Shown: positions 2 through 57,279 of the stretch, piece by piece | Numbering within the stretch: the stretch's first letter is position 1 | How the letters are laid out: each line of letters starts with the position of its first letter | From: an uncultured Bacteroidota bacterium | GTDB lineage: Bacteria > Bacteroidota > Bacteroidia > JADZBD01 | DNA: 64,000 nt | Assembly (NCBI GenBank): GCA_937924855.1 | Contig: CALEYQ010000001.1 | Coordinates: 65,060-129,059, forward strand | Direction: 5' to 3' | Program-made: the position numbers and the translations under genes | The notes under the pieces: generated by a model | The model's database searches: none | What the model was told of the DNA's origin: nothing | Seen by the model: only the letters and a program-made list of their open reading frames with translations

Positions 2-1405
2 TCCCAGTCTATTGAAATGAGCGTAGCTGAAGTTGACTATGCCCTTTTCCAAAATGCCATGGCTTTGGGGTACATGAAAAAACCGGATAAGAAAATCGAA
101 AATCTGGAGAAGCTCGTGACTCGATTTAAGGGGAAATCACCTTACGAGGCTTCCGGACTTTATGAGTTGGCTCTGTCTTTTTCGCTGAAGGACGAAAACG
201 ACAAAGCCTTTGCTATGTTTAAGCGGATTACCGATGAGTTCCCTAAGTCGAATGTTACGGCCCCCTCTTTGCTTCAGATGGGGAACATTCTGAACAAGCA
301 GAAAAAATACGACGACGCTCTGGTAATTCTTGAAAAAGTTATCGATAAATACCCGAAAACATTTTCAGGACTGGAAGCCGTTCAGATCATCACCGAGATA
401 TGTAAAAACAAAAAGGACATGGAATGTCTCGATCGTGTGGCCGGCATTCCCTGGGCTAATGTGTCTAAAGCAAGAGTAGATTCAAATGCTTTTCAGATTG
501 CGCGTGATGCTTATCTGAAGGAAAACTACACCGAGGCCCGGATGCAGTTCGGAAAATACCTGCAAAAACATCCCGATGGTATTTTTGTGCTTGATGCTAC
601 CTTTTATAAAGCCGAATGCGATATGCTGGCCGGCGATCAGAACCTGGCCCTGGGTGGTTATGTTTTTGTGATTGACCGTATTCCCAACAAGTTCGGCGAG
701 GTGAGTTTGGCCAAGGCCAGCAGCATTTATTTTAAAAACAACGATTTTGAACGGGCGCTTAAGAATTATCAAACCCTGGAACAACTGGCCGAAACACCTT
801 CAAACCTGATGAACGCAAGAGTAGGGCAGATGCGTTGCCACTTTAATCTGAATAACTGGGATGGGGCCATAGAATACGGAAACAAAGTGCTTAACACCGA
901 CAAAACCGGCAAAGAATTGTTTTCGGAAACCAAAATGATAATGGGTAAATCGGCCATGGCAAAAGGCGATAATGATATGGCCTGGAAGGAATTTGCAGAA
1001 GTGATTAAGTCAGGAACCGGAGAGCGTCCGGTGGAAGCAAAATACCTTACGGGAGAAATAAAATTCCTGAAGGGAGAGTTTAAAGAATCGCAGAAAATTT
1101 TGTTTGAGTTGATTAATCAGAAGCCCCCCTATAGTTATTGGATAGGGAAATCGTTTATTCTGATTTCCGACAATTATGTGGGACTGAACGATCTGTTTAA
1201 CGCCAAATTTACCCTCAATACCTTTATTGAGAAATCAACGAATGAAGAATTGCTGAAAATTGCGAGAGAAAAACTGGCGAAGGTGCTTGAGCTGGAAAAA
1301 GAACTTGAAAATAAAAACAAACGAACCATCGAAGATCCCTTTAAGGTGGAGTTCAGAAATCAGCCTGTTCCTGTTTTGGAAAACGATTCAATACAAAAGA
1401 AATGA
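2..1405 (+). CDS. Tetratricopeptide-repeat (TPR) protein, 5' partial (reading frame open to window start)
   Basis: 462-aa ORF from ATG at 17. No in-frame stop between position 2 and 17, so the gene probably starts upstream of the window. Helical repeat composition with recurring A/L/Y/K patterns typical of TPR arrays. The stop overlaps the start of the next ORF (ATGA), suggesting translational coupling. Confidence 0.55.
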   Translation, partial: SQSIEMSVAEVDYALFQNAMALGYMKKPDKKIENLEKLVTRFKGKSPYEASGLYELALSFSLKDENDKAFAMFKRITDEFPKSNVTAPSLLQMGNILNKQKKYDDALVILEKVIDKYPKTFSGLEAVQIITEICKNKKDMECLDRVAGIPWANVSKARVDSNAFQIARDAYLKENYTEARMQFGKYLQKHPDGIFVLDATFYKAECDMLAGDQNLALGGYVFVIDRIPNKFGEVSLAKASSIYFKNNDFERALKNYQTLEQLAETPSNLMNARVGQMRCHFNLNNWDGAIEYGNKVLNTDKTGKELFSETKMIMGKSAMAKGDNDMAWKEFAEVIKSGTGERPVEAKYLTGEIKFLKGEFKESQKILFELINQKPPYSYWIGKSFILISDNYVGLNDLFNAKFTLNTFIEKSTNEELLKIAREKLAKVLELEKELENKNKRTIEDPFKVEFRNQPVPVLENDSIQKK

Positions 1406-3090
1406 GAGTAGTCTTTTTTGCAAAGCCCCTTTTCATCGTAATGGTTTTCTGTGTTGGTGTAATGTCTCATGCCCAATACCGCGACACTTCCATTTTCTTT
1501 TTTGAAAGCGATGCGGTGATTAAAATTGCGAACACACAGAAAATAAAGGAGAACCCGGTTTTCCCGGATACTTCGGCCATAACGCCCGCCATGAAGTATG
1601 GAATTTCATCAGTTCCTGTTAGCCCTCCCCTCGTGTTAAATCCCATGAAAGCAGCGGTGCTTGAGGGAACCCCGCTTAAGAAATTGTATCCGGGTTTGAT
1701 AAAAGCAGGGTTTGGAAATTATACCACTCCGCTGCTGGATTTCAGTTTCGGCAGTTTGAGATCTAGAACTTTGAATTACGGTTTCAGGGCAATGCATCAT
1801 TCTTCCAGAGCTACCCTTGAAAATTCCGGATTTAGCGGGTTTTCGGATAATCTACTTTCCGGCCACACAAAATATTTTCTGCGGAAACATACCCTGAGCG
1901 GCACTGCGGGGTATGAAAGAAATGCCGTTCATTATTTTGGATTCAATCCCGAATTGCATGATATTTCAAACCGTGAACTTACCTTCCAGGCATTTAACAC
2001 GTTTAATCTTTCAGGGGAAATAAAAAGTCATTATCACGACTCTTCCAAACTGAATCATAAGGTAAATCTTGATTATTACATCCAGAATGATTTGTTCGAT
2101 GTAATGGAAAATAATGTAAAGCTGAAGGCCGAGGGTGGGAAGGAAATCAATCATCAGTTTTTCGGTTCGCGGGTTTATGTAAATTACTTGAACGACCGCA
2201 TGGGGGTAAAAGACACGGCCAATTCCACCATCCTGGGTCTGGAGCCTTTTGTGAAATATACCGGAAAAAAAATCCGGGCCTCTGTTGGGCTTAATATGGC
2301 GCTTGATCTGGCGGCTAAAAACCGCTTTTATTTTTATCCCAACCTTGAAGTTCAATTCAACATTGCCGATTATATCCTGGTTCCCTATGCCGGGATTGGA
2401 GGGGGTTTGAACCGAAACAGCTATTATTCCCTGCGTAACGACAATCCCTTTCTGGTTCCCACCGTGGCCCTTAACCTGAGAAATACCGATGAGAAATTCC
2501 TTGTTTACGGCGGACTCCGGGGATCCATTTCAAAATCGCTTTCTTATGATCTTTCGGCCCGCTACACCCTGGTGAATGATCTTGTATTGTATGCTACCGA
2601 TACCGGGAATGTGTTAAGTCCAACCCTTTACCAGATGTTGCAAAACCGCTTTGTGGTAGTGTATGATTCCGGAAATGTGTTAAACCTCAAGGGTCAGATT
2701 AAGTTTAACTCCGGGAAACGCTTCAGTTTCATGATGGAGGGAAGCTATTACCGGTACTCCCTGAAAAATCATCGTTTTGCCTGGCATCTGCCCGGAATAG
2801 AGCTCGCCTTCAGGGCCGAATACAACCTGCGGGATAAAATCTACCTAAAATCATCGGTGTTTTATACCGGGGAAAGGTTTGCACCGGTGCGAAAAACCGC
2901 CAATAACCCCGATGGATATGTTATTTTGAAGGGTTTTGCCGATTTGAACCTGGGTCTTGAGTACAGGTATAACAAACGGACCTCCTTTTTTGCCAATTTC
3001 AATAACCTGAGCGGTGGACGGTACTACCGCTGGCACAATTATCCTGTCCAGCGATTGAATGCTCTGGGGGGAGCAACCTGGGCATTTTAA
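1402..3090 (+). CDS. Outer-membrane beta-barrel protein (hypothetical), co-transcribed with upstream TPR gene
   Basis: 562 aa. N-terminal hydrophobic signal peptide (MRVVFFAKPLFIVMVFCVGVMSHAQ). Alternating amphipathic beta-strand-like segments rich in Y/G/N/F. C-terminal aromatic residue (…ATWAF), typical of OM beta-barrels. Confidence 0.5.
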   Translation: MRVVFFAKPLFIVMVFCVGVMSHAQYRDTSIFFFESDAVIKIANTQKIKENPVFPDTSAITPAMKYGISSVPVSPPLVLNPMKAAVLEGTPLKKLYPGLIKAGFGNYTTPLLDFSFGSLRSRTLNYGFRAMHHSSRATLENSGFSGFSDNLLSGHTKYFLRKHTLSGTAGYERNAVHYFGFNPELHDISNRELTFQAFNTFNLSGEIKSHYHDSSKLNHKVNLDYYIQNDLFDVMENNVKLKAEGGKEINHQFFGSRVYVNYLNDRMGVKDTANSTILGLEPFVKYTGKKIRASVGLNMALDLAAKNRFYFYPNLEVQFNIADYILVPYAGIGGGLNRNSYYSLRNDNPFLVPTVALNLRNTDEKFLVYGGLRGSISKSLSYDLSARYTLVNDLVLYATDTGNVLSPTLYQMLQNRFVVVYDSGNVLNLKGQIKFNSGKRFSFMMEGSYYRYSLKNHRFAWHLPGIELAFRAEYNLRDKIYLKSSVFYTGERFAPVRKTANNPDGYVILKGFADLNLGLEYRYNKRTSFFANFNNLSGGRYYRWHNYPVQRLNALGGATWAF

Positions 3091-5219: not shown

Positions 5220-5236
5220 TGCATAAGTAAAGGCAC

Positions 5237-5265
5237 AAAAAAAGCGGGCAGTGCCCGCTTTTTTT
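5237..5265. terminator. Bidirectional rho-independent terminator between convergent gyrB and collagen-like gene 1
   Basis: A7 run, then hairpin gcggg-cagtg-cccgc, then T7 run. Symmetric, so it can terminate both strands. Confidence 0.6.
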
Positions 5266-5282
5266 ATTTATAATTCTTCGAA

Positions 5283-7058
5283 TTAAAAAGTCTTTTTCGG
5301 AAGGGGTTGTTGAGAAAGGTCGCTCAGGCGAACTGAGTTAACCTTGTGTTTGCCTTCAAACTTATGGAACCTGATTCCGGTATATTTGGAAACCAGAATT
5401 CCGTTGCGGTATTCATCGGCACGAACGGCAACCACTTTATAGGTGAATTTTACATTTGAGTTGCCTCCGGAAAGTTCTTTTACTTCAAAACCATCTTTGG
5501 ATTTATTAAACACATATACTCCGTTACAATCGCCTTCCAGCTGAATAAATACGCGAAGTGGATTTTGTCCGTCTACGGTAATATTCTTGGAGTAAATGGG
5601 ATCCAGGGTAATCCGTGCATATCCGTTTACAAGATTACCTTCTCCATAGTCTTCAAACATGGGTTCGGGAGCTTCGGGTGAATACATAACCACCTGTTGG
5701 CCGTATAGATCTTCTACAATAGTTGAAACAACACCGGTTCCAATGATTTTATTGTTGGTGGCTCCATTATAACGGGCCACATAAGCAAAATAATCATTGG
5801 CAGCATTCAGGGAGTCGTCGAAATAACCTCCGGCCGTTATGCCTGCAGTACTTCCTCCATAGGCGCGGGCGTAAATTCCGTATGATCTACCGGTAAAAGA
5901 TCCGCCACTTCCGGCGGTGGAATAATAAATAGGGTTCACATTATTTCCACCTCCTACAACTCCGGTTCCCAGAACATTCGTATTCCAGCTGATGGAGCCA
6001 AAAGAAGCGGCTCCCACGGCCTGAAAATATCCTCCGGAGCCGGTAAGGTTATTAAATCCGATAACACCAAAACTGGTGGAGGTGTTTACACCATAAACAC
6101 CTGCTCCTGTGCTGGAGTTAATCCCCTGCACTCCGTATCCGCCTCCTGTGTTTTCACCATACACACCCACTCCGGTGGTTGCGGAATATCCGTTAATTGC
6201 AAAAGCCCCAAGCGGGTTGGTTGAGCCGGCCACACCGGAACCAAAAACAGAGAATACATCGCCCGCAAAAGGTGCAACGGCATTATAAACTCCGGGTCCT
6301 GTTGCCAGAATTCGCATTCTTTCATTCGTGGCAAGAGCGCCACCGGTTTTAGTAACAAATGCCTGAGCATCCAGAGTTCCGATAAAGTTGGTGGGGGGAG
6401 TGGTACCTGAATTACCTAAAATCCACCAGGCAGTTTGTGAGGGACCGGTTGCGCCGGTTGCCCCTGTGGCGCCTGTTGATCCGGTGGCACCGGTAGCACC
6501 GTTATTTCCTGTAGGGCCGGTAGCTCCGTTCGCGCCGGCAGGGCCTGTGGCTCCGGTAGCACCGTTAGCGCCCGAAGGTCCTGTTGGTCCCTGTGGGCCC
6601 GTTGCACCATTAGCACCTGCAGGTCCGGTTGGGCCGGTAGCTCCGGTTGATCCGTTAGTTCCCGCAGGGCCTGTGGCTCCGGTAGCACCCGTAGGTCCGG
6701 TTGCTCCAACCGATCCGCTGGAACCCGTGGGTCCTGTAGGCCCGGTAGGTCCGGTTCCACCACCTGCCGAGGCACGGCAAAGGCTTACCCATGAGGGGGG
6801 AGCGGTACGGTAAAAAAAGTAACACATGGAATCGGTATCGTACACCAATAATGAATTGGAAGGGGCAACTATGGCCAAACGCTGCACCGCAGTCATTCGG
6901 GGAACCAATAGCCCTTTGTTAGTAGAAAGCAATTCTAAAATTGCACTGGGAGCCGGTGTGTTTGTTCCGATTCCAACATTGTCCTGGGCGATAAGGCTTG
7001 AAGGAGCCATAAAAACGGCAAATACAATCAGCCATAAACCAAGTAAAAATTTTTTCAT
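5283..7058 (-). CDS. Secreted collagen-like (Gly-X-Y) triple-helix repeat protein, paralog 1
   Basis: 591 aa. Signal peptide ([25 protein letters not shown]). Conserved N-terminal domain ([10 protein letters not shown]…LLVYDTDS). About 110 residues of uninterrupted [12 protein letters not shown] triplets. Gly-rich G-x-Y-G-x-N repeats. Conserved C-terminal domain shared with the 7152-9326 gene. Confidence 0.7.
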
Positions 7059-7078
7059 TTTTCGGGTATAGGTTTAGG

Positions 7079-7086
7079 CAAAACTA
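7079..7086 (-). promoter_or_regulatory. Putative Bacteroidetes sigma-A -7 element (TAGTTTTG = TAnnTTTG) for collagen-like gene 1
   Basis: Plus-strand caaaacta is TAGTTTTG on the minus strand, about 21 nt upstream of the ATG. It matches the TAnnTTTG -7 consensus of Bacteroidetes promoters. Confidence 0.3.
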
Positions 7087-7100
7087 AGGAAGAAAAATGG

Positions 7101-7125
7101 AAAAAAAAAGCCCCCAAATGGGGGC
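7101..7125 (-). terminator. Rho-independent terminator after collagen-like gene 2
   Basis: gccccc-aaat-gggggc hairpin, followed on the minus strand by a T9 run. It lies between the two paralogs, so they appear to be separately transcribed. Confidence 0.5.
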
Positions 7126-7151
7126 TTTTGTACAAGTTCCAAACAGGATTT

Positions 7152-9326
7152 TTAACGGTTCTGAAGGGATTTACCCTTTGAATTGTCTTCCTTTATCTCA
7201 AGATTCTTCACCGGAGCCGGTCCGGGACCTACAGGGAAGCGAAGATTTGCATTTACCGAAGTAACATTTCCTGACTGGTCTTTCGTGTCAGCCCTGTTGG
7301 CAAAAATCTGCCAGGAAAATTTAACATTGCTTTGTCCGCCGTTCAATTCAACCACATCAAATCCATTGGCGGTTTTGTTGGTTACATAAACTCCGTTGCA
7401 GTTTCCTTCCAGCTGAATGAAAACTTTGAGGGGCTTGCTATCGTCGATGTAGATGTTTTTTGCAAGAATGGGATCAATGTCAATATGAGCAAAACCATTC
7501 ACGAGCGTTCCGGTTCCCACATCCTGAAATAAAACTTCAGGAGCTTCGGTACAAAACATTATGCGGTTCTCATCATTCATGCCTTTAACCATGGTAGATT
7601 TTAATCCGGCAGAAAGAATACCATAATCAGTGGCTCCGTTTCTTCCACCCACATAAGCATAGCCGTTGGCGTAGTTGTTAGCGGAGAAATATCCTCCCCA
7701 GCGACCGTTAATCGGGAGGGCGGTTGTTCCAACAGCCCAACCGGCCATACCGTAATCCTGGCCCGTTCCATTCACTCCGCAACCGGCACCAAGTGTGGTA
7801 AAGGGTCCAGGAATGTTGTTTCCAACCCCTAAAAATCCAATACCTGTGGTAAGAGTTGTTACGGCAGGTGCATTACCAGCACGGCCGAGACCTCCCAAAT
7901 CAATTCCGGTAAATGCACCACCGCTTCCATTCACCATATAGGTTCCTTGTGCGCCTTCACCGGCTCCAAAAATGGCGGTTCCTGAAGCATTTCCGTTATT
8001 TCCGCGAACACCGAAACCGGTAGCGTTTGAAATGTTTCCGTAAACACCGGTAGATCCGTTTCCGGTTGTGGAAGAATTTTCTCCGTAAACACCAGCGCCC
8101 GTGGAATTGACATATCCGTTAATGGCCCAATCGCCCAATGTGTTATTTGTAGCACCGGTATAGTTGTTTCCTACAACAGAAAACACATCTCCCGCCATAA
8201 GGGTTGTTGCATTGTAATGTGCCTGTCCTGTATTAAATATCCGCATCCGCTCAATGTTGTTGGAGCGCATGGCAAAACTCATGTTGTCGGTAGTTCCCAG
8301 GAAATTAGCTGCAATGTTGGTTCCGGCATTTCCTGTGGTAAGCCATGCTCCTGCAAGGGTGGTGAGATTTTGGGGAAATGTGGTAACCAGGTTTAAAGTT
8401 CCGTTGGTGTTGAAGGTCAAACTTGTTATGGTCCAGTTCGGACCGGTTGGTCCGGTTACACCCTGAGGTCCTGTTGCACCTGTTAATCCGGTAGGACCAG
8501 TTGGTCCCTGAGCACCTGCTGCTCCGGTAGGTCCGGTTGCGCCATTTGCACCTGCAGGACCTGTTGGACCTTGTGCTCCTGTCGCACCATTTGCGCCGTT
8601 CGCACCTGTGGGTCCGGTTGCGCCGTTAGCACCATTCGCACCCGTAGGTCCGGTTGCTCCGTTAGCACCATTCGCACCGGTAGGACCGGTTGCTCCGTTA
8701 GCACCATTTGCACCCGTAGGTCCGGTTGCTCCGTTAGCACCATTCGCACCGGTAGGTCCGGTTGCGCCATTTGCACCGGCAGGACCCGTGGGTCCCTGTG
8801 CACCCGTTACACCGTTTGCGCCTGTAGGTCCGGTAGGACCATTTGCACCGGCAGGACCTGTGGGTCCTTGTGCACCTGTTGCACCGTTAGCACCTGCTGC
8901 ACCGGTTGGCCCCTGTGGACCTGTTGCTCCATTTAACCCTGCAGGTCCTGTTGGACCAGTTGCTCCATTGGCTCCCGCCGAACCGGTGGGTCCGGTAGCA
9001 CCTGCTGTTCCGGCAGGACCTGTAGGCCCTGTTGGACCTGCATTCTGACATAGAGAAATCCATCCGGAAGCGGTGGTGAAATAAAAAAAGCAATCGAAGT
9101 TTGTATCATAAACCAAAAGCCCATTGGCCGGTGTTGCAATAGCCGTTCGCTGAGCGGTTGTCATTCTGGGAACCAAAACACCTTTGTTGGTGCTGAGCAT
9201 TTCCAGAATGGAAGAAGCATCCGGAGTGTTGGTTCCAATTCCGACATTATCCTGAGCCTGAATATTTCCAAAAAGGAAAATTAAAATTCCGACAAGGAAT
9301 TTTGAAAAGGGTAATTTTCTGATCAT
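7152..9326 (-). CDS. Secreted collagen-like (Gly-X-Y) triple-helix repeat protein, paralog 2
   Basis: 724 aa. Signal peptide. N-terminal domain about 75% identical to paralog 1 ([32 protein letters not shown]…LLVYDTN). About 190 residues of GPT/GAN/GAT triplets including a 5x [12 protein letters not shown] unit. Gly-rich solenoid-like repeats. Conserved C-terminal domain (…[14 protein letters not shown]…SNVKF…). Confidence 0.7.
8590..8790. repeat. Near-perfect 36-bp tandem repeat array (about 5 copies) encoding [12 protein letters not shown] units inside collagen-like gene 2
   Basis: Direct reading of the DNA: the unit ggtccggttgc(t/g)ccgttagcaccattcgcacc(c/g)gtag recurs head-to-tail. The antisense ORF 8608-9048 shows the same 12-aa periodicity ([12 protein letters not shown] x4). 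Confidence 0.7.
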
Positions 9327-9352: not shown

Positions 9353-9360
9353 CAAATATA
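9353..9360 (-). promoter_or_regulatory. Putative sigma-A -7 element (TATATTTG) for collagen-like gene 2
   Basis: Plus-strand caaatata is TATATTTG on the minus strand, about 27 nt upstream of the ATG at 9326. Confidence 0.3.
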
Positions 9361-9460: not shown

Positions 9461-10081
9461 CTACTTGTTTAGGCGATTTTTGAGATACCATAAAATCAGC
9501 AAAAAAACCGGAATGGCGGCAAGAATATACCAGATGGATGTTCCTCTCTCAGGATGCTTTAAAAGCCGGTTTGGAAATTCGGATGTATCGTTTTCATTTA
9601 ATGTGGTTATCGTGCTGCCATAAATGCTCTCGAGATTTTGAATTTCTTTTTCAAAATTCATAGATCTTTCCGTAAAATAATAGTCGGTTGAATCGGGCAA
9701 TCGTTTGCGGGAATGACTGCAAAAGTGGACATGGGGATTTCCGAAGGTTTTATAATTGCCGTAAATAATCCATTCCTCACCGGGGAAAAAAGCTACTCTG
9801 CAGTCGGAAAGGTTGTCGTATTTCAAATCCAACTGCGAGGGCCCGCTGCCCAAAAAATATTTCGACACGTTTATTTTTGCTACTCCCTGAGCCCCTGAGG
9901 TATCAATGGAAACAATGGTTCCCTGAAAAATTAAATTGTATTGTTTTTGATCTTTTTCAAGGGGCTTCCAGGGGTCGCAGATACAGGCGAATGAAAAGAT
10001 TGTCTGCAACAATAAAATCGAAAGGAAAATAAAAAACCTTTTTTCCGGGATTGCGTTTTTGTAATTATTCTGAAATGGCAT
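9461..10081 (-). CDS. Hypothetical membrane-anchored protein
   Basis: 206 aa. N-terminal hydrophobic segment and a C-terminal TM (IWYILAAIPVFLLILWYL). Several Cys residues. No recognisable family. Confidence 0.4.
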   Translation of the reverse strand: MPFQNNYKNAIPEKRFFIFLSILLLQTIFSFACICDPWKPLEKDQKQYNLIFQGTIVSIDTSGAQGVAKINVSKYFLGSGPSQLDLKYDNLSDCRVAFFPGEEWIIYGNYKTFGNPHVHFCSHSRKRLPDSTDYYFTERSMNFEKEIQNLESIYGSTITTLNENDTSEFPNRLLKHPERGTSIWYILAAIPVFLLILWYLKNRLNK

Positions 10082-45793: not shown

Positions 45794-45813
45794 ATCGTTT
45801 TATTCAGGCAATG

Positions 45814-46275
45814 TTACTTGCCGATTAATTCGGTTTTTCCTCCTTTGTCTTCAATGGCTTTTTTTGCCGTGCCGGAAAAGGCATGCGCCTTTACTTCCAG
45901 TTTGGATTTTACTTCGCCGCGACCCAGGATCTTGATCAGATCTTTCTTTCTGGCCAATCCGTTTTCAATCAAAACCTCGGGCGTGATGGCCGTAAGTTTT
46001 TTGGCTTCGGAAAGTTTCTGGATTACATCCAGATTAATACCGTTGTATTCAACGCGGAAAGGGTTTTTAAATCCGAACTTCGGAATTCTACGCTGCAAAG
46101 GCATCTGGCCTCCTTCGTGTCCGAACTTGGCGGAAAAACCGGAGCGTGATTGTGCTCCTTTGTGTCCGCGTGCGGATGTGCCGCCTTTGCCCGAACCTTG
46201 TCCGCGGCCGAGTCTTTTCTTTTGATTTTTTGTGCTGCCCTTGGCAGGTCTAAGTGTGCTCAGTTTCATGGTCAT
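45814..46275 (-). CDS. rplO: 50S ribosomal protein L15
   Basis: MKLSTLRPAKGSTKNQKKRLGRGQGSGKGGTS… matches L15. Confidence 0.9.
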   Translation of the reverse strand: MTMKLSTLRPAKGSTKNQKKRLGRGQGSGKGGTSARGHKGAQSRSGFSAKFGHEGGQMPLQRRIPKFGFKNPFRVEYNGINLDVIQKLSEAKKLTAITPEVLIENGLARKKDLIKILGRGEVKSKLEVKAHAFSGTAKKAIEDKGGKTELIGK

Positions 46276-46285
46276 CCTCGCTTAA

Positions 46286-46462
46286 TTACTTTTGTATTTC
46301 AACCAGATGTTGAACTTTTTTTACCATTCCAAGAACCTGGGGAGTAGCTTCAATTTCCACTACCTGGTTCAGTTTTTTAAAACCCAGGGCTTCGATGGTG
46401 CGTTTTTGCCTCACCGGCCGGTCGATCCCGCTTTTTACAAGCTTTAGTTTAATCTTCGCCAT
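46286..46462 (-). CDS. rpmD: 50S ribosomal protein L30
   Basis: MAKIKLKLVKSGIDRPVRQKRTIEALGF… 58 aa. Start taken at the internal Met of the ORF-track entry 46286-46495. Confidence 0.8.
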   Translation of the reverse strand: MAKIKLKLVKSGIDRPVRQKRTIEALGFKKLNQVVEIEATPQVLGMVKKVQHLVEIQK

Positions 46463-46472
46463 GGTATTTATT

Positions 46473-46994
46473 TTATCCGTTATAAACTTGTTCAATGGAA
46501 ACGCCTCTGTGCCGTGCTACGGTATAGGCATCGCGCAATTTGGTCAGGGCATCGATGGTGGCTTTTACCACGTTGTGCGGGTTGGAAGAACCCTGCGACT
46601 TGGCAAGTACATCCGTAACCCCTACCGATTCAAGTACTGAGCGCATGGCACCACCGGCGATTACTCCGGTTCCGTGCGAAGCAGGCTTCAGATAAATCCG
46701 CGATCCGCCGAATTTGCCATATTGGGCGTGAGGGATGGTGCCTTTAAAAATGGGAACCTTAATCAGGTTCTTCTTGGCATCTTCAATACCCTTGGTGATG
46801 GCATCGGTTACTTCCTTTGCTTTTCCCAAACCGTAACCTACAACACCTTTTTCGTTTCCAACCACAACAATGGCTGAAAAGCTGAATGTTCTTCCGCCCT
46901 TGGTTACTTTGGTTACGCGTTGAACTCCGACCAATTTGTCTTTGAGTTCAATTTCACTTGATTTTACCCTTTTAATATTGCTTGATTTCTCCAT
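46473..46994 (-). CDS. rpsE: 30S ribosomal protein S5
   Basis: …[24 protein letters not shown]… matches S5. Confidence 0.95.
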
Positions 46995-47013
46995 GTTATA
47001 ATGAGTTCAGTAT

Positions 47014-47370
47014 TTAAAATTTAAGGCCTGCTTCGCGTGCTGCATCGGCAAGCGCTTTAACGCGACCGTGATACAGGTATCCGTTCCGGTCGAAACGAAC
47101 GGTGGATATTCCTTTGGAAATCGCAATTTCTGCAATTGCCTTTCCCACTTTTTTCGCCTGTTCGGTTTTGTTTTCCTTGCCGGCTTTTTGGTTTTTTTTG
47201 AATGAGCCTGCAGCGCAGATGGTTTTTCCCTGAAGGTCATCAACCAACTGGGCGTATATCTGTTTGTTGCTGCGGAATACAGTAAGCCGGGGTGACTGTG
47301 CATCGCCGCTTACAACTTTCCGGATTCTCATCTTGATCCGGTTCCTTCTATATGATTTGGTAATTGCCAT
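47014..47370 (-). CDS. rplR: 50S ribosomal protein L18
   Basis: …[19 protein letters not shown]… matches L18. Confidence 0.9.
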
Positions 47371-47392
47371 TGTTATAATTTTTTCAGGTTAA

Positions 47393-47947
47393 TTATTTAC
47401 CTGCCGCTTTTCCGGCTTTTCTGCGTAATACTTCATTGGTAAACTTGATACCTTTTCCTTTGTATGGTTCAGGCTTTCTGAGGGAACGGATTTTTGCCGC
47501 CACCAGTCCGATAAGTTGTTTGTCGGCACATTCCATCAGAATGGTCGGGTTCTTACCTTTTTCCTGCATGGTGCTTACCTTAATTTCTTTGGGAAGTTCC
47601 ATGGCCACGTTGTGCGAGTAACCCAGCGTAAGTTCCAGCAACTGACCCTTAACGGCAGCACGATATCCTACCCCTACCAGTTCCTGAGACGTTTTGTATC
47701 CTTCGGATACACCTACAACCATGTTCTGAATGAGTGAGCGGTACATGCCGTGCATGGCTTTGTGACGCTTTTGCTCGGTGGCTCTTTCAAGAACAAGTTC
47801 CTTATCGGCAATCTTAATTTTGATGGCGCTATCTACAGGCTGGGTTAGTGTACCAAGCTTTCCTTTCACCGTTACCAGGTTTTTGTCGGAGACCGAAATT
47901 TCTACTCCGGAAGGGATTTCTATAGGTTTTTTACCAATTCGTGACAT
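47393..47947 (-). CDS. rplF: 50S ribosomal protein L6
   Basis: MSRIGKKPIEIPSGVEISV… matches L6. Confidence 0.95.
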   Translation of the reverse strand: MSRIGKKPIEIPSGVEISVSDKNLVTVKGKLGTLTQPVDSAIKIKIADKELVLERATEQKRHKAMHGMYRSLIQNMVVGVSEGYKTSQELVGVGYRAAVKGQLLELTLGYSHNVAMELPKEIKVSTMQEKGKNPTILMECADKQLIGLVAAKIRSLRKPEPYKGKGIKFTNEVLRRKAGKAAGK

Positions 47948-47959
47948 TGCTTCTGGGTA

Positions 47960-48355
47960 TTAATAAACGTAACACAATATTTCTCCACCCACATTTTCCT
48001 TGCGGGCTTCTTTATCGGTCATTACTCCCTTTGAAGTGGAGATAATGGCAATTCCCAGTCCGTTCAATACACGGGGCAGGGAAGTGGATCCGGTATATTT
48101 ACGCAAGCCGGGCGATGAAATGCGCTGCAGTTTGCGAATAGCCGATTCACGGGTCTGGGGGTGGTATTTAAGGGCTATTTTAATATTGCCCTGGGGACCC
48201 ACATTCTCAAATTTATAATTGAGGATGTACCCTTTTTCGTGAAGGATTTTAGTCATGGCCTTTTTCAGGTTGGAGGCGGGAATTTCTACCACCTGATGAT
48301 TGGCTTTAATTGCATTCCTGAGACGGGTCAGGTAATCTGAAATTGGATCTGTCAT
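47960..48355 (-). CDS. rpsH: 30S ribosomal protein S8
   Basis: [15 protein letters not shown]… matches S8. Confidence 0.95.
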
Positions 48356-48409
48356 TTTTTTGTTTTTAATATCTTATCCCGCGTACAGGATAATTATACT
48401 TAGTTTTTT

Positions 48410-48679
48410 TTACCAGCTGGCTTTAGTTACTCCGGGGATTTTTCCCATGAGGGCCATTTCACGGAACATGTTCCGGCAAAGGCCGAACTGACGGATATAA
48501 CCTCTGGGCCTTCCGGTTAATTTGCAGCGGTTGCGCATTCTTACCGGAGATGAATTCCGGGGCAGTTTGCTCAGACCGATATAATCGCCGGCGGCTTTCA
48601 GCTCTTCTCTTTTCTTTTCGTATTTGGCAACAAGTTTGGCTCTTTTAACCTCCCTTGCTTTCATTGATTCTTTAGCCAT
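48410..48679 (-). CDS. rpsN: 30S ribosomal protein S14
   Basis: [16 protein letters not shown]…LCRNMFRE… matches S14. Confidence 0.9.
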
Positions 48680-48697
48680 TTATCTGCTTTGGTTTTA

Positions 48698-49264
48698 TTA
48701 TTTTTTTAAATTTTTGAAGGGCATTCCGAATTCACGTAGGAGTGCAAAAGCTTCTTCGTCGTTGTCGGCTGAGGTAACAAAAGTGATATCCATTCCCAGA
48801 ATCTTGTTCACCTTATCGATGTTGATTTCAGGGAAAATAATCTGTTCGGTTACGCCCAGGGTATAGTTGCCGTTTCCGTCGAAACCTTTTTCGCTGATAC
48901 CGCGGAAGTCACGGATACGTGGCAGGGCCGCAGAGATCAAACGATCGAGGAATTCGTACATCATGGTTCCGCGCAGGGTAACTTTAACACCGATGGGAAC
49001 CCCTTTTCTCAGTTTGAAGTTCGAAATATCCTTTTTCGAAATGGTAGCAACGGCTTTCTGACCGGTAATGGCCGAAAGTTCCTGAATGGCACCATCGATT
49101 AATTTTTTGTCGGTAACCGCATCACCGATTCCCTGGTTGATACAGATTTTTTCAAGTTTGGGAACCTGCATGGGTGAGGAATATTGAAATTCCTGCTTCA
49201 ATGCGGGCATTACCTTGTTCAGGTAATGATCTTTCAGTCTGGGTTTGATAACAGTTGTTGCCAT
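48698..49264 (-). CDS. rplE: 50S ribosomal protein L5
   Basis: …[15 protein letters not shown]…ITGQKAV… matches L5. Confidence 0.9.
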
Positions 49265-49587
49265 TATTTAATTACCTCCTTTGACTTTTTGGAAATGCGA
49301 ACCAGTTTTCCGGTTTTTTCATCCAGGGTTCTGCCTACGCGTGTTGGGTTTCCGGCAGCATCGAGTAATGCCAGGTTGGAAACATTCACGGGAGCTTCTT
49401 TTTTTACGATGCCGCCCTGAGGGTTTTTAGAGTTGGGTTTGGTGTGGCGGGAAACAAGGTTAATGCCTTCCACCAGTGCCGTGCCCTTCTTAAGGTCCAT
49501 GAAAATCACTTTCCCTTTCTTTCCTTTATAGTTGCCGGAAAGAACCTGAACCTGATCGCCTTTTTTGATTTTATATTTTGGTTTCAT
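49264..49587 (-). CDS. rplX: 50S ribosomal protein L24
   Basis: [27 protein letters not shown]… KOW motif of L24. Confidence 0.9.
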
Positions 49588-49605
49588 TTTCTGGTTTGTT
49601 AAAAA

Positions 49606-49974
49606 TTAAAGTACTTCCGGAGCCAGTGAAACAATCTTCATGTATTGTTTTTCCCGAAGTTCCCGTGCAACGGGACCGAAAATACGCGTGCCTCTGAGTT
49701 CGTCCTGGGCATTCAGCAATACAATAGCGTTATCATCGAAGCGGATATAGGATCCGTCGGCGCGTTTAATTTCTTTTTTGGTTCGTACCACCACAGCCTT
49801 GGAAATAGAACCTTTTTTTACGCCACCTGAAGGAAGGGCGTTCTTAATGGTAACTACAATGGTATCGCCAATGGAGGCATATCTCCTGCGGGTACCACCG
49901 AGTACGCGGATGCAAAGTGCTTCTTTCGCACCGCTGTTGTCGGCTACAACCAATCTGGATTCCTGCTGTATCAT
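49606..49974 (-). CDS. rplN: 50S ribosomal protein L14
   Basis: [18 protein letters not shown]… matches L14. Confidence 0.95.
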
Positions 49975-49997
49975 TTGTCTATGAGGATTTTAAAATA

Positions 49998-50252
49998 TTA
50001 TTTAGCTTTTTCCACAATTTCTACCAGGCGCCACCTTTTGTTTTTACTCAAAGGGCGTGTTTCCATGATGGTCACGGTATCACCAATGCCCGACTCATTT
50101 TTTTCATCGTGAGCCATAAACGTAGAGGTCCGTTTAACGAACTTTCCGTATTTGGGATGCTTTACCTTTCTTTCTACGGAAACAACAATGGTTTTATTCA
50201 TTTTGTTGCTGGTAACGATTCCCGTTTTTTCTTTTCTTCTTTTCCTTTCCAT
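49998..50252 (-). CDS. rpsQ: 30S ribosomal protein S17
   Basis: …[27 protein letters not shown]… matches S17. Confidence 0.9.
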
Positions 50253-50257
50253 GGATG

Positions 50258-50467
50258 TTATGCCTTGGTTTCTTGTTCTTTAATCTCTCTTGCCCTGAGT
50301 TCTGTTGCCAGGCGGGCAATGAATTTCCTGGCGTCTCTCAATTTGATCGGGTTATCGATCGGAGAAACGGAATGATTGGCGCTTAACCTGTCCAGGTTTT
50401 CTTTTTCCTGGATTAATTTATCTTTCAGGTCGCTGGTGGATAGATCCTTTATATCTTTTGCTTTCAT
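50258..50467 (-). CDS. rpmC: 50S ribosomal protein L29
   Basis: [18 protein letters not shown]… matches L29. Confidence 0.85.
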
Positions 50468-50476
50468 AGCCTGTTA

Positions 50477-50908
50477 TTAAGCAGTTTTTTCTTCAACATA
50501 ATCTCTGCGCACGACAAACTTTACCGGAATGGGAAGTTTTTGTGCCGCCAGTCGAAGGGCTTCCTTGGCAACAGCCAATGGCACTCCTTCTGCTTCGATG
50601 AGCATTCTTCCGGGTTTCACAACGGCTACCCAGTATTCAGGGGCTCCTTTTCCTTTACCCATCCTCACCTCGGCCGGCTTTTTGGTAATTGGTTTATCCG
50701 GAAACACGCGAATCCATACTTGTCCCTCACGCTTCATGAAACGGGTAATAGCTACCCTGGCTGCTTCAATCTGACGTGCGGTTACCCAGGAGGTTTTGAG
50801 GGCCTTGATTCCGAAGGAACCGAAAGCAAGCTCAGCACCTCTCTTGGTGTTCCCTTTGGGAACCATCTTGTGCATTTTCCTGTACTTTGTTCGTTTGGGC
50901 TGTAACAT
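50477..50908 (-). CDS. rplP: 50S ribosomal protein L16
   Basis: [14 protein letters not shown]… matches L16. Confidence 0.95.
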
Positions 50909-50936
50909 TTTTAATCTATATTATCCGGTCAAACAA

Positions 50937-51668
50937 TTAGTCTTTTTTCTTGCGTTGCTTGGAGAAACCGCCTTTAGGTTGTGTAGGGGCTTTTTTCTCG
51001 TTGGCATTTCCAATATTGGGCGATAAGTCGCGCTTTCCGAAAACTTCGCCACGGCAAATCCAGCACTTAACGCCAATGCGTCCGTATGTGGTATGGGCTT
51101 CAGCTACGGCATAATCGATATCGGCCCGGAAGGTGTGAAGAGGTACTCTTCCTTCCTTGTATTCTTCCATACGGGCAATCTCTGCACCTGCCAATCGTCC
51201 GGAAACACGAATCTTAATTCCTTCGGCACCCATACGCATGGTGCTGGCTACCGACATTTTCATGGCACGCTTGAAAGAAATTCTTCCTTCAATCTGACGG
51301 GCAATGCTATCGGCCACGAGACGGGCGTCGAGCTCAGGTCTTTTGATTTCAAAGATGTTGATCTGAACTTCTTTCTTGGTGAACTTCTTCAGCTCTTCCT
51401 TGATTTTGTCAACTTCCTTTCCGCCTTTACCAATGATAATTCCCGGCCGCGCAGTGTGGATGGTAAGCGTGGTAAGGGGTTTATTGGTTCCGGTTCTTTC
51501 GATTACAATTTTGGAAATGCTTCCCTTGGGAAGACGTGCCTTAATGTAATTGCGGATTTTTTCGTCCTCAACCAGTTTGTCGGAATAATTTCTTCCTCCA
51601 AACCAGTTGGAGTCCCATCCTTTAATTATTCCCAAACGATTCCCAATGGGGTTAGCTTTTTGTCCCAT
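50937..51668 (-). CDS. rpsC: 30S ribosomal protein S3
   Basis: [14 protein letters not shown]… KH domain, matches S3. Confidence 0.95.
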
Positions 51669-51672
51669 ACTA

Positions 51673-52080
51673 TTATTCTTTTTCTGAAGTTTCTACTGTG
51701 TCTACAAACAAGGTTACATGATTCGAGCGCTTCCGGATCCTGTGGGCTCTTCCCTGAGGAGCTGTGCGAAGGCGCTTTAAAATGAAGCCACCGTCGACCT
51801 GAATTTTTGTGATTACAAGGTTTCCGGTATCAGCACGGTTTCCTGATTTTGCTTCGTAGTTGGCAATGGCCGAGCTAAGAAGTTTTTCAAGACGGCCTGC
51901 GGCTTCTTTCTTGGTGAACTTTAAAATTCCCAGTGCTTTATGAACTTCCTGTCCGCGGATCAGATCGGCCACCAAACGCATTTTTGTAGGCGAAGTGGGG
52001 CAATTTCTGAGGATTGCGTAGTAGTTAGTTTTTCTTTTCTCTTTCAGCTTTTCAGCCATTTCTTTTTTTCTGGACGACAT
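51673..52080 (-). CDS. rplV: 50S ribosomal protein L22
   Basis: …[22 protein letters not shown]… matches L22. Confidence 0.9.
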
Positions 52081-55152: not shown

Positions 55153-57279
55153 TTATACTTTTTCAGCTTTTTTTCCGTTTACCTTGGCTACTACCTCATC
55201 GGTGATGTTTTTCGGAGTTTCTGCGTAGTGCGAAAATTCCATAGTAGAAGTGGCTCTTCCGGAAGTAATGGTTCTTAATTGAGTTACGTATCCAAACATT
55301 TCACCGAGTGGAACTTTGGCCTTAACCACCTGAGCAGTTCCGCGGCTGTCCATTCCTTCGATCTGACCGCGACGTTTGTTCAGGTCCCCCACCACATCTC
55401 CCATGTATTGTTCGGGCGTGATAACTTCCACTTTCATAATGGGCTCGAGAAGCACAGGCTTTGTTTTGGGCATGGCTTCACGATAAGCGGTTTTGGCGCA
55501 AATTTCGAACGACAATGAATCAGAGTCAACGGCGTGGTAAGAACCATCGATAAGAATTACTTTCATGCTTTGCAGGGGGAATCCGGCCAATACACCATTG
55601 GTCATGGATGCACGGAAACCTTTCTCTACGGCAGGAATAAATTCTTTTGGGATATTACCACCGGTAATCTGATTTACAAACTGTAGTCCGCCGTTTTTGT
55701 CGGTGGTTTCAAAGTCAGAATCAACGGGAGTGATCTTAAACTTAATATCGGCGAATTTACCGCGACCACCGGTTTGCTTTTTGTAAACTTCGCGGTGCTC
55801 AACAGTTCCGGTGAAGGATTCTTTGTAGTTAACCTGGGGAGCTCCCTGGTTTACTTCTACTTTGAATTCTCTTCTCAGACGGTCAACAATAATTTCAAGG
55901 TGTAATTCACCCATTCCGGAGATGATGGTTTGTCCGCTCTCTTCATCCGTTTTAACGCGGAAGGTAGGATCTTCTTCAGCCAGTTTCGCGAGTGAGTTAC
56001 CCAGTTTGTCAAGGTCGCCCTGTGTTTTTGGCTCAATGGCGATACCGATTACAGGCTCAGGGAAGTTCATGGCTTCGAGCACGATGGGTTTTGACTCATC
56101 GCAAAGGGTATCGCCGGTTTTAATGTCCTTGAATCCAACAGCAGCGCCGATGTCACCTGCTTCGATAGCATCGATGGCATTTTGTTTATTGGCATGCATC
56201 TGGAAAATACGGCTGATACGCTCTTTATTTCCGCTGCGGGTATTCAGTACATAGGAACCTGCTTCCAGACGGCCGGAATAGGCGCGGAAGAAGCACAGTC
56301 GGCCTACAAAGGGGTCGGTGGCAATTTTAAAAGCAAGGGCACAGAAAGGATCCTTGGCATCGGGTTTACGAATCACTTCTTCACCAGTATCGGGGTTGGT
56401 TCCCACAATATTGTCCTTGTCGAGGGGTGAAGGAAGAAGTTTCATTACATAGTCGAGCATGGTTTGCACGCCTTTGTTTTTGAAGGCTGATCCGCAAAGC
56501 ATGGGAACGATTTTGTTGGCCACACATGCTTTACGCAGGGCGGTAAGGATTTCGTCTTCGGAAATGGAGTTAGGGTCTTCAAAAAACTTCTCCATCAAAG
56601 AGTCATCAAATTCGGCAATGGATTCAAGGAGTTTTTCTCTCCAGTGTTTTGCTTCCTCCATTAATTCTTCGGGAATGGGAACTACTTCAAAGGTCATACC
56701 CATGTCTTGTTCGTTCCAAACAATTCCGCGGAAGTTAACGAGGTCAACCACACCTTTAAAATTTTCTTCAGAACCGAGGGGAAGCTGAAGGGGAACGGCG
56801 TTTCCTCCGAGCATTTCTTTTACCTGGTGAACGACATTCAGGAAGTCGGCACCGGCGCGGTCCATTTTATTTACAAAACCCAGACGGGTTACATTATAGT
56901 TATTGGCAAGTCTCCAGTTGGTTTCAGACTGGGGTTCAACACCGTCAACAGCTGAGAAAAGGAAAACAAGTCCGTCAAGTACCCGCAGGGAGCGGTTTAC
57001 CTCAACGGTAAAATCCACGTGACCGGGAGTGTCGATGATATTAACCTTGTATTTCTGTCCGTTGTAATTCCAGAAGCAGGTAGTAGCGGCAGAAGTAATG
57101 GTAATTCCCCTTTCCTGTTCCTGCACCATCCAGTCCATGGTAGCAGCTCCATCATGCACTTCACCAATTTTGTGATTTACACCGGTATAGTACAGAATCC
57201 TTTCGGTACAGGTAGTTTTACCCGCATCGATGTGTGCTGCGATTCCGATATTTCTGGTAAATTTTAAATCCGTTGCCAT
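55153..57279 (-). CDS. fusA: Elongation factor G
   Basis: 708 aa. G-domain motifs ([21 protein letters not shown]). Domains II-V. Confidence 0.95.

What the first reader, a model, noticed from the sequence alone, without database searches (positions are those of the whole stretch)
5283..9326. Tandem pair of secreted collagen-like fibre proteins with conserved globular end-domains
Two adjacent paralogous genes, each with its own TAnnTTTG -7 box and terminator, encode the same four-part architecture: signal peptide; a highly conserved ~75-aa N-terminal domain ([11 protein letters not shown]…ILE(L/M)LSTNKG(L/V)LVPRMT…QR.AI..P.N.LLVYDT…C); a long uninterrupted Gly-X-Y run dominated by GPT/GAT/GAN triplets (about 37 and about 63 triplets); Gly-rich G-x-(Y/F)-G-x-N beta-solenoid-like repeats; and a conserved ~100-aa C-terminal domain (…EAPE..F.D.G.G.LVNG.A.I..DPI..KNI..D…PL.VFIQLEG.CNGVYV.NK…GF.V.EL.GG.SNVKF…). 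GPT-rich collagen triple helices capped by a globular trimerisation head are known from Bacillus exosporium BclA and from phage tail fibres. This N-domain / C-domain combination is not one I can assign to a described family. Nothing phage-like flanks the pair; gyrB is on one side and hutH/hisS on the other.
Basis: partly seen in the sequence, partly recalled or inferred. Interest (0 to 1): 0.7.

Follow-up and report, generated by a model that had tools for sequence, protein, structure and literature searches.

The report
Secreted phage-tail-fibre-like collagen fibres
Two neighbouring genes of an uncultured Bacteroidota bacterium encode exported, probably three-stranded collagen-stalk fibres assembled from modules related to phage tail fibres; the family is widespread and uncharacterised but is not a new kind of thing.

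Summary
Genes at 5283-7058(-) (591 aa) and 7152-9326(-) (724 aa) are paralogs with the same layout: signal peptide, ~72-aa N-domain, uninterrupted Gly-X-Y run (36 and 67 triplets), Gly-rich ~11-residue repeats, and a conserved ~110-aa C-domain. Each has a TAnnTTTG box and a hairpin terminator.

The claim that the domains are unassignable is only partly right.
- The N-domain is Pfam PF26696 "PTL_trimer". It matches about 58,800 protein clusters and is often present in several copies within giant proteins.
- The C-domain carries no Pfam family, but it is homologous to the C-terminal domain of a Blautia phage tail protein (hhalign 96%, E 1.5e-9).

The genes are cellular, not prophage. The flanks are housekeeping genes, the adjacency to gyrB recurs in 13 other genomes, and two pattern scans of IMG/VR found no relative.

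Best reading: Sec-exported homotrimeric "lollipop" fibres with a length-variable collagen spacer and a lectin-like tip. They are analogous to Bdellovibrio MAT fibres and Legionella Lcl. Surface location, ligand, orientation and export route are inferred, not shown. This is a new variant of a known kind, of moderate interest.

The parts
7152..9326 (-). geneB: 724-aa fibre protein, the long-stalk paralog
   Evidence: ORF. The database's precomputed annotation gives PF26696 and PF01391. Paralog of geneA.
9255..9326 (-). geneB signal peptide, residues 1-24, predicted cleavage IQA|QD
   Evidence: The sequence shows a basic N-region, a hydrophobic core and small residues at -3/-1. In 124 of 173 family members the N-domain starts at residues 20-29. 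No signal-peptide predictor was run.
9039..9254 (-). geneB N-domain (PF26696 'PTL_trimer'), residues 25-96, with a Cys pair just before the collagen
8436..9038 (-). geneB collagen run: 67 uninterrupted Gly-X-Y triplets, about 57 nm, encoded by 36/72-nt tandem repeats
7608..8435 (-). geneB neck (W..GN.GT...NF.GTTD...ERMRI) and Gly-rich repeat shaft
   Evidence: By homology to the modelled geneA region.
7236..7607 (-). geneB conserved C-terminal domain
   Evidence: tblastn with the geneA C-domain, 50% identity. Alignment A4.
7152..7235 (-). geneB variable C-terminal tail ([10 protein letters not shown]..., charged) and stop codon
9353..9360 (-). TATATTTG: match to the Bacteroidetes -7 consensus TAnnTTTG upstream of geneB
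   Evidence: Read from the sequence. Pattern match only.
7106..7129 (-). Terminator-like hairpin plus T-run after geneB
7079..7086 (-). TAGTTTTG: match to TAnnTTTG upstream of geneA
   Evidence: Read from the sequence. Pattern match only.
5283..7058 (-). geneA: 591-aa fibre protein, the short-stalk paralog
   Evidence: ORF. Identical to database protein P0001, which carries PF26696 and PF01391.
6987..7058 (-). geneA signal peptide, residues 1-24, predicted cleavage LIA|QD
6768..6986 (-). geneA N-domain (PF26696), residues 25-97, with Cys79 and Cys94 flanking a predicted beta-hairpin
   Evidence: AlphaFold model, pLDDT 84. Weak fold matches to trimeric phage and collagen domains. Cys-collagen association.
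6438..6761 (-). geneA collagen run: 36 uninterrupted Gly-X-Y triplets, about 31 nm
5739..6437 (-). geneA neck and Gly-rich ~11-residue repeat shaft, residues 208-440
5364..5738 (-). geneA conserved C-terminal beta-sandwich domain, residues 441-565
5283..5363 (-). geneA variable basic C-terminal tail and stop codon
5235..5267 (.). Bidirectional terminator-like hairpin between geneA and convergent gyrB

Best explanation
geneA and geneB encode two Sec-exported proteins that each most likely form a homotrimeric 'lollipop' fibre built from phage-tail-fibre-type modules.

Proposed steps:
1. Signal peptidase cuts before Gln25.
2. The ~72-aa PF26696 domain sits directly next to the Gly-X-Y run. It probably sets the register and nucleates the triple helix. 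A Cys pair probably staples its last beta-hairpin 3-5 residues before the first Gly.
3. The uncharged, Thr-rich collagen helix acts as a spacer of about 31 nm (geneA) or about 57 nm (geneB).
4. The Gly-rich ~11-residue repeats form a tailspike-like shaft, probably intertwined between the three chains.
5. The conserved C-terminal beta-sandwich is a lectin-like knob that binds a glycan.

The likely role is adhesion or recognition at the cell surface, with two paralogs presenting related tips at two distances.

Shown here: the architecture, the homologies, the fold similarities, the cellular non-phage context and the taxonomic spread. Inferred: trimerisation beyond the collagen part, the disulfide, surface exposure, glycan binding, which end is cell-proximal, and how the outer membrane is crossed.
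For: - Architecture and paralogy.
- Uninterrupted runs of 36 and 67 Gly-X-Y triplets imply a triple helix (established knowledge of collagen). The runs have no charged residue. Thr occupies position Y in 23 of 36 and 34 of 67 triplets, and Pro occupies X in 13 of 36 and 27 of 67.
- The N-domain is PF26696 'PTL_trimer'. It always follows the signal peptide in this family. Its best fold matches are weak but are all trimeric modules: CBA120 TSP3/TSP4 N-termini, the collagen XV/XVIII trimerisation domain, the HylP fibre and Mtd.
- The Cys pair is present in 54 of 73 collagen-bearing members against 6 of 100 collagen-less members.
- BFVD gives 25 matches at E<=1e-3; those with a description are proteins of tailed phages, including tail fibres, collagen-repeat proteins and, a little further down (E 3e-3), an H-type-lectin protein.
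- The C-domain is homologous to a phage tail protein.
- Cellular context: all neighbours are housekeeping genes. The same gyrB - 548-aa protein - TPR protein - ABC block lies next to family genes in 10-13 other genomes. At least 566 loci were found in species-representative genomes, against none in two pattern scans of IMG/VR and one weak hit among 50,697 phage records.
- Described analogues with the same logic are the MAT fibres (PMC10769870) and Lcl (PMC11162425).
Against: - There is no experimental datum for any family member.
- No outer-membrane export or anchoring signal was found: no T9SS C-terminal domain, lipobox or LPXTG.
- The C-domain is the most conserved part of the family. That is unusual for an adaptive receptor-binding tip and could instead mark the self-attachment end.
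- The N-domain also occurs internally and in many copies in giant proteins, so it is not a dedicated cell anchor.
- Fold matches for the N-domain are not significant (best E 0.08).
- The models are monomers, so the trimeric shaft is inferred.
Confidence: 0.6

Rival explanations
1. Same fibre, opposite polarity and a different role. The highly conserved C-domain, with its basic C-terminal tail, binds the cell's own envelope glycan or LPS and anchors the fibre. The N-terminal end points outward, or the fibres form a structural coat rather than an adhesin.
For: - The C-domain and neck hold nearly all the invariant columns of the family, while the N-terminal module is exchangeable: P0009 and P0068 carry other N-modules.
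- The tails after the C-domain are charged and often basic.
- The N-domain is a generic repeat module rather than a specific anchor.
Against: - In the described analogues (phage fibres, MAT, Lcl) the N-terminus is proximal and the C-terminal head binds ligand.
- The C-domain's relatives are C-terminal parts of phage tail proteins and lectins.
Confidence: 0.2
2. The genes are tail fibres of a prophage, or of a phage-tail-like particle (eCIS or tailocin) encoded elsewhere in the genome.
For: - Strong fold and module similarity to phage fibres.
- Collagen shafts with lectin tips are catalogued for eCIS fibres (PMC12923769).
Against: - Both proteins carry Sec signal peptides. From general knowledge, phage and eCIS fibres assemble in the cytoplasm and lack them.
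- No phage or CIS gene was found among the window proteins scanned or among the genes called on syntenic contigs.
- Stable synteny with gyrB in 13 genomes.
- No relatives in IMG/VR.
- Each gene has its own promoter-like box and terminator.
Confidence: 0.06
3. BclA-type spore or exosporium nap protein. One homolog is named 'exosporium protein' by NCBI.
For: - GPT/GAT-rich collagen like BclA; that comparison is from general knowledge.
- The NCBI name of P0006.
Against: - From general knowledge, Bacteroidota are not known to form endospores.
- Only the collagen part matches the known collagen adhesin models, far below their cut-offs.
Confidence: 0.02

Closest known systems
Bdellovibrio bacteriovorus MAT (mosaic adhesive trimer) fibres, e.g. 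Bd2133, Bd1334, Bd2439 (PMC10769870)
   Different: The MAT N-domain is about 130 aa and was not shown to be related to PF26696. MAT shafts are beta-prisms without collagen (the word 'collagen' does not occur in that paper). MAT tips are diverse, whereas this C-domain is conserved. The host here is a Bacteroidota bacterium with no evidence of predation.
Legionella pneumophila collagen-like protein Lcl (PMC11162425)
   Same: A diderm bacterium exports a trimeric 'lollipop': an N-terminal surface-targeting part, a collagen stalk with a variable repeat number, and a conserved C-terminal trimeric glycan-binding head.
   Different: Lcl is a type II secretion substrate. Its N-terminal region is a 30-residue helix and its C-terminal domain fold is unrelated. 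NCBIfam adhesin_Lcl scores 37 and 86 bits against a cut-off of 500, and only over the collagen-rich part.
Phage tail fibres and tailspikes with collagen-like shafts, and R-type pyocin fibres
   Same: The module set is shared: trimer-forming N-module, collagen repeats, a tailspike-like shaft, and a C-terminal knob with H-type-lectin or pyocin-fibre-like folds. The C-domain shows sequence homology to the Blautia phage Montmirail tail protein.
   Different: These genes carry signal peptides, are monocistronic and sit among housekeeping genes with conserved synteny. Close relatives were found only in cellular genome records, almost all Bacteroidota.
Bacillus BclA and Streptococcus Scl1/Scl2 collagen-like surface proteins
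   Same: A Thr-rich Gly-X-Y triple helix without hydroxyproline serves as the stalk of a surface protein. A flanking globular domain aids trimerisation, and the repeat number is polymorphic. These points of comparison are from general knowledge.
   Different: There is no C1q-like head (BclA) and no LPXTG anchor or V-domain (Scl). NCBIfam scores are far below the cut-offs, and the host is a diderm.

Membership tests
Pfam PF01391 Collagen triple helix repeat | Profile match above the gathering score (27.2 bits); uninterrupted Gly-X-Y | tested here: met
   49.2 and 94.0 bits. 36 and 67 uninterrupted triplets.
Pfam PF26696 PTL_trimer | Profile match to the family model | tested here: met
   The database's precomputed annotation lists PF26696 for both window proteins and for all 45 hits of the 72-aa N-domain query. 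The model is absent from the Pfam copy I could scan, so the score was not recomputed. I could not find what 'PTL' stands for.
BclA-type exosporium collagen-like glycoprotein | C-terminal C1q/TNF-like jelly-roll trimerisation head | tested here: not met
BclA-type exosporium collagen-like glycoprotein | Made by an endospore former and attached to the exosporium | not testable with these tools
   The relatives are Bacteroidota, Ignavibacteria and a few others. The organism itself is uncultured.
Scl1/Scl2 (NCBIfam NF038330 / NF038329) | Whole-protein score above the cut-off (400 / 325 bits); LPXTG anchor | tested here: not met
   Scores of 54-110 bits, from the collagen region only. No LPXTG is present in either sequence.
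Lcl (NCBIfam NF046116) | Whole-protein score of at least 500 bits | tested here: not met
   37 and 86 bits.
Phage or prophage tail fibre | Encoded within a phage structural module | tested here: not met
   The neighbours are gyrB, hutH, hisS, ABC-F and others. gyrB synteny recurs in 13 genomes. No IMG/VR relatives were found.
Phage or prophage tail fibre | Tail-fibre or tailspike-type fold and modules | tested here: met
H-type lectin (Pfam PF09458) | Sequence profile match | tested here: not met
   No Pfam hit at E<=10 on the post-collagen regions.
H-type lectin (Pfam PF09458) | H-lectin beta-sandwich fold with a sugar site at the trimer interface | tested here: inconclusive
Bdellovibrio MAT superfamily | Conserved ~130-aa beta-rich domain directly after the signal peptide, homologous among MATs | not tested
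   No MAT N-domain sequence was available. The PF26696 domain here is about 72 aa. The feature itself is taken from PMC10769870.
Bdellovibrio MAT superfamily | Trimeric fibre with a C-terminal adhesive tip; surface located | not testable with these tools
T9SS cargo | C-terminal sorting domain, type A (PF18962/TIGR04183) or type B (TIGR04131) | tested here: not met
   No such hit in Pfam or NCBIfam. Neighbouring genes in other genomes do carry these domains.

The most novel reading that the evidence does not exclude
Bacteroidota and their relatives may carry a very large, unrecognised repertoire of domesticated phage-tail-fibre proteins. This family would be one branch of it, marked by PF26696 modules and an unnamed lectin-like C-domain. 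On this reading the proteins are exported by the Sec pathway and reach the cell surface by a route that needs neither a T9SS C-terminal domain nor a lipid anchor. They would act as length-tunable glycan-recognition fibres, with the collagen repeat number setting the reach and Thr O-glycosylation stabilising the helix. That would be a Bacteroidota counterpart of the Bdellovibrio MAT system in non-predatory bacteria.
Probability: 0.25. Interest if true: 0.6.

Novelty: new variant of a known kind. Interest (0 to 1): 0.4.

Why it matters
If these are surface fibres, they add a widespread adhesin class to Bacteroidota. The post-collagen region has at least 566 loci in species-representative genomes, and the N-module matches tens of thousands of protein clusters. 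Bacteroidota surface biology is currently explained mostly by T9SS cargo, SusCD-type lipoproteins and type V pili. Three questions follow.
- How does a protein without a T9SS signal or lipobox cross the outer membrane?
- How is a charge-free, hydroxyproline-free, Thr-rich collagen helix stabilised?
- Which glycan does a conserved phage-derived knob recognise?

The C-domain has no Pfam family even in the newer precomputed annotation and could be defined as one. None of this overturns current understanding. Collagen-stalk trimeric adhesins and domesticated tail-fibre modules are already known.

Tried and rejected
- Pfam and NCBIfam scans of the whole proteins and of the isolated end-domains gave only collagen matches. 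The local Pfam copy lacks PF26696.
- PDB sequence searches of both end-regions found nothing.
- Most PHROG hits on the full proteins come from the collagen repeats. Only phrog_6616 survives on the collagen-free C-region.
- Two IMG/VR scans found no relatives, one with single-sequence patterns and one with profile-derived patterns.
- Four literature searches for the meaning of 'PTL_trimer' or PF26696 found nothing, so I cite the name only.
- The searches with the 72-aa N-domain and the 121-aa C-domain returned mainly short fragments, so they were of little use for architecture.
- The prophage/eCIS reading was rejected on context and on the signal peptides.
- A heterotrimer of the two paralogs was considered and thought unlikely, because their helices differ by 31 triplets. 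This was not tested.
- The Bacteroidetes general O-glycosylation motif D(S/T)(A/I/L/V/M/T) occurs only twice in geneA and never in geneB, and never in the collagen. If the Thr residues are glycosylated, it is not through that motif.
- A weak PMT_2-plus-TPR membrane protein lies next to family genes in about 10 other genomes, but the window has no homolog of it. I did not build on it.
Full report
**1. Observation**

They are clear paralogs. BLASTP gives E 1e-108 and 45% identity over the post-collagen part, and 57% over the N-terminal part. The N-domain alone is 65% identical and the C-domain 50%.

Both start with a typical signal-peptide-like sequence ending LIA|QD or IQA|QD.

The Gly-X-Y runs are perfectly uninterrupted: 36 triplets in geneA (residues 100-207) and 67 in geneB (residues 97-297). 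GAT, GPT and GAN dominate. Pfam Collagen is the only hit in the Pfam copy I could scan.

The runs contain no charged residue. Thr is at position Y in 23 of 36 and 34 of 67 triplets, and Pro at X in 13 of 36 and 27 of 67. At 0.286 nm per residue they would span about 31 and 57 nm.

The promoter and terminator claims hold as pattern matches only. TATATTTG lies at 9353-9360 and TAGTTTTG at 7079-7086. Hairpins with T-runs lie at 7106-7129 and 5235-5267, and the second is shared with convergent gyrB.

**2. The source organism and the context**

geneA is identical to a database protein found on 11 metagenomic contigs from JGI and ENA samples, all with the same gene order. That order is hisS - hutH - a 206-aa ORF - geneB - geneA - gyrB (convergent) - a 562-aa protein - a TPR protein - an ABC ATPase.

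The nearest genomes are uncultured Bacteroidia.

Every other window protein I scanned is a housekeeping or ordinary envelope protein. Examples are purL, EF-G, the H+-pyrophosphatase, PspC, a TonB-dependent receptor and the ribosomal-protein operon. There are no tRNA or Rfam hits. Nothing phage-like is present.

**3. The N-domain is a known and very large family**

The database's precomputed annotation assigns PF26696 'PTL_trimer' to both proteins. It lists this domain before Collagen, and also assigns it to all 45 hits of the isolated 72-aa domain.

A profile of the domain matches 58,796 of 1.84 billion 50%-identity cluster representatives at E<=1e-3, and 39,776 at E<=1e-10. The best hits are giant proteins of up to 6,840 aa with 3-15 copies at internal positions. 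In some of these it accompanies a phage tail collar domain or YadA-head repeats.

So it is a generic fibre module, not a private N-terminal anchor. Within the present family, however, it always follows the signal peptide directly.

Its AlphaFold model (pLDDT 84) has one short helix and a three-stranded sheet. Foldseek against the PDB gives nothing significant (best E 0.08). Even so, the weak top matches are all trimeric modules: the N-terminal domains of the CBA120 tailspikes, the collagen XV/XVIII trimerisation domain, the HylP fibre and Mtd. I could not find what 'PTL' stands for.

**4. A Cys pair that tracks the collagen**

I examined 231 family sequences. Of these, 173 have the N-domain and 81 have at least 8 uninterrupted triplets (range 8 to 102).

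Two cysteines in the N-domain occur in 54 of 73 members that have both the N-domain and collagen. They occur in only 6 of 100 members that have the N-domain but no collagen.

In the model the two cysteines sit at opposite ends of the last beta-hairpin, in register. The second one lies 3-5 residues before the first Gly.

I infer an intrachain disulfide that staples the hairpin at the base of the triple helix. The counts are not corrected for relatedness among the sequences, and the disulfide is not shown.

**5. The post-collagen region**

Residues 207-591 of geneA have more than 725 relatives in the protein database, counting only the 8,000 candidates that were scored.

Nearly all of the best 80 loci are Bacteroidota (Bacteroidia, Flavobacteriales, Vicingaceae, Chitinophagales). 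Cultured carriers include Paraflavitalea and Niastella vici. A few are Ignavibacteria and Balneolaceae.

Many members, for example P0080 and P0119, join the N-domain directly to this region with no collagen. Others (P0009, P0068) have different N-terminal modules. The collagen is therefore an optional spacer of variable length.

Invariant columns cluster in the neck (W..GN.GT...NF.GTTD...ERMRI) and in the last ~120 residues. The middle of the region conserves little but glycines.

**6. Fold of the post-collagen region**

The AlphaFold model has mean pLDDT 86. The Gly-rich repeat part is confident but has almost no intrachain strands. That is what an intertwined trimeric shaft would look like when only one chain is modelled. 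This is an inference.

No C1q/TNF structure is among the best 60.

Foldseek against BFVD gives 25 matches at E<=1e-3. Those that carry a description are proteins of tailed phages: tail protein, minor tail protein, tail fibre and collagen-repeat proteins. An H-type-lectin-domain protein follows at E 3e-3. TM-scores are low, as expected for elongated monomer models.

**7. Sequence link to phages**

Without the collagen, one PHROG remains: phrog_6616 'tail protein', E 4.5e-6, on the C-domain.

tblastn against 50,697 phage genomes finds one record, Blautia phage Montmirail. The hit is in the 763-aa 'tail protein' encoded two genes after the tape-measure gene.

A profile-profile comparison confirms homology at 96.3% probability, E 1.5e-9, over 98 columns. 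geneA residues 442-546 align with phage residues 607-705.

The C-domain has no Pfam family, even in the precomputed set that already contains PF26696.

**8. Cellular, not viral**

Two scans of 2.9 million IMG/VR contigs found no relative.

I called ORFs in the 80 fetched loci and clustered them.
- gyrB lies next to a family gene in 13 loci.
- In most of those 13, the flanking genes of the window (the 548-aa protein, the ~1050-aa TPR protein and the ABC ATPase) are present too; each was found in 10-14 loci.
- Same-strand tandem arrays of two to four N-domain genes are common, seen in at least 15 loci. The tandem pair in the window is therefore typical of the family.
- T9SS cargo genes (type A or B C-terminal domains) lie in the fetched flanks, often directly adjacent and on the same strand, in 39 of 80 loci. 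The fibre proteins themselves carry no such domain.

**9. Mechanism**

I commit to the following model.
- The proteins are exported by the Sec pathway and cleaved before Gln25.
- The PF26696 module, adjacent to the helix, registers and nucleates the triple helix.
- The collagen acts as a spacer of 31 or 57 nm.
- A tailspike-like trimeric shaft follows.
- A lectin-like C-terminal knob binds a glycan.

The closest described analogues are the Bdellovibrio MAT fibres and Legionella Lcl. MAT fibres have a signal peptide, a conserved N-domain, a trimeric fibre and lectin-like tips, and are surface located (PMC10769870). Lcl has an N-terminal surface targeting region, a collagen stalk with a variable repeat number and a conserved trimeric glycan-binding head (PMC11162425).

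Open points:
- The route across the outer membrane is unknown.
- The polarity is unresolved. The strong conservation of the C-domain and the basic tail would also fit a self-anchoring end.
- The ligand is unknown.
- Helix stability without charged residues or hydroxyproline is unexplained. Thr O-glycosylation, as known for BclA and for Riftia cuticle collagen, is a guess from general knowledge.

**10. Comparison and verdict**

The proteins fail the membership tests for BclA (no C1q-like head), for Scl1/2 and Lcl (scores far below the cut-offs) and for a phage-encoded fibre (context). Membership of the MAT superfamily could not be tested. They are members of PF01391 and PF26696.

Its 'unassignable' claim is half right: the N-domain is assignable, while the C-domain is unnamed but has phage relatives.

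This is a new variant of a known kind: collagen-stalk trimeric fibres made from domesticated tail-fibre modules. It is widespread, uncharacterised and of moderate interest.

Noticed in passing
window 8436-9038 (geneB collagen); protein P0129: The geneB collagen is encoded by 36/72-nt tandem repeats. A metagenomic allele, P0129 (700 aa), is 699/700 identical but lacks exactly 24 residues, which is 8 triplets or one 72-nt unit. This is either a real stalk-length polymorphism or a repeat collapse on a 3.6-kb contig.
   Followed up: partly
loci L012, L017, L021, L035, L040, L041, L044, L045, L047, L068 (around 10-20 kb in each): The block of fibre gene(s) - gyrB (convergent) - 548-aa protein - ~1050-aa TPR protein - ABC ATPase seen in the window recurs in at least 10 other Bacteroidia MAGs. 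The fibre locus is therefore old and vertically inherited in that lineage.
   Followed up: yes
39 of 80 loci, e.g. L021:133-6041, L047:163-6635: Large T9SS cargo genes (type B 'gliding motility-associated' or type A C-terminal domains, SprB-like Cys-rich repeats) lie in the flanks of the fibre genes, often directly upstream on the same strand. In the window itself, hutH and hisS occupy that position. Whether this reflects shared function or just the abundance of such genes was not tested.
   Followed up: partly
L010:7230-9239 and equivalents in about 10 loci (L011, L013, L018, L025, L034, L059 and others): A ~670-aa membrane protein lies near family genes. It has a weak PMT_2 (GT-C mannosyltransferase-like) match of 24.3 bits against a cut-off of 26.1, plus C-terminal TPRs. 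It could be a glycosyltransferase for the Thr-rich helix. The window holds no homolog.
   Followed up: partly
proteins P0176-P0325: The PF26696 module occurs 3-15 times inside giant proteins of up to 6,840 aa. It is also found in short proteins made of three or four tandem copies followed by a phage tail collar domain, e.g. P0195. P0174 (114 aa) combines it with a T9SS C-terminal domain.
   Followed up: partly
window 9461-10081 (-): A 206-aa ORF lies directly upstream of geneB and overlaps the end of hutH by 17 nt. It has an N-terminal hydrophobic segment, a C-terminal transmembrane-like segment and no Pfam match. It is present in all syntenic contigs. Its function is unknown.
   Followed up: no
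window 1402-3090 (+): A 562-aa protein with a signal-peptide-like start and no Pfam hit. It is conserved next to gyrB in at least 10 related genomes. Its Tyr/Gly/Asn-rich sequence ending in ...GATWAF looks like an outer-membrane beta-barrel, but that is only an impression.
   Followed up: no
window 45800-51700 (-): The stretch without long ORFs is the ordinary ribosomal-protein operon with secY: L15, S5, L18, L6, S8, L5, L24, L14, L16 and S3. EF-G lies at 55153-57279.
   Followed up: yes
window 59734-62436 (+): A membrane H+-pyrophosphatase is fused to a C-terminal YceI-like domain in a 900-aa protein. I did not check whether this fusion is common.
   Followed up: no
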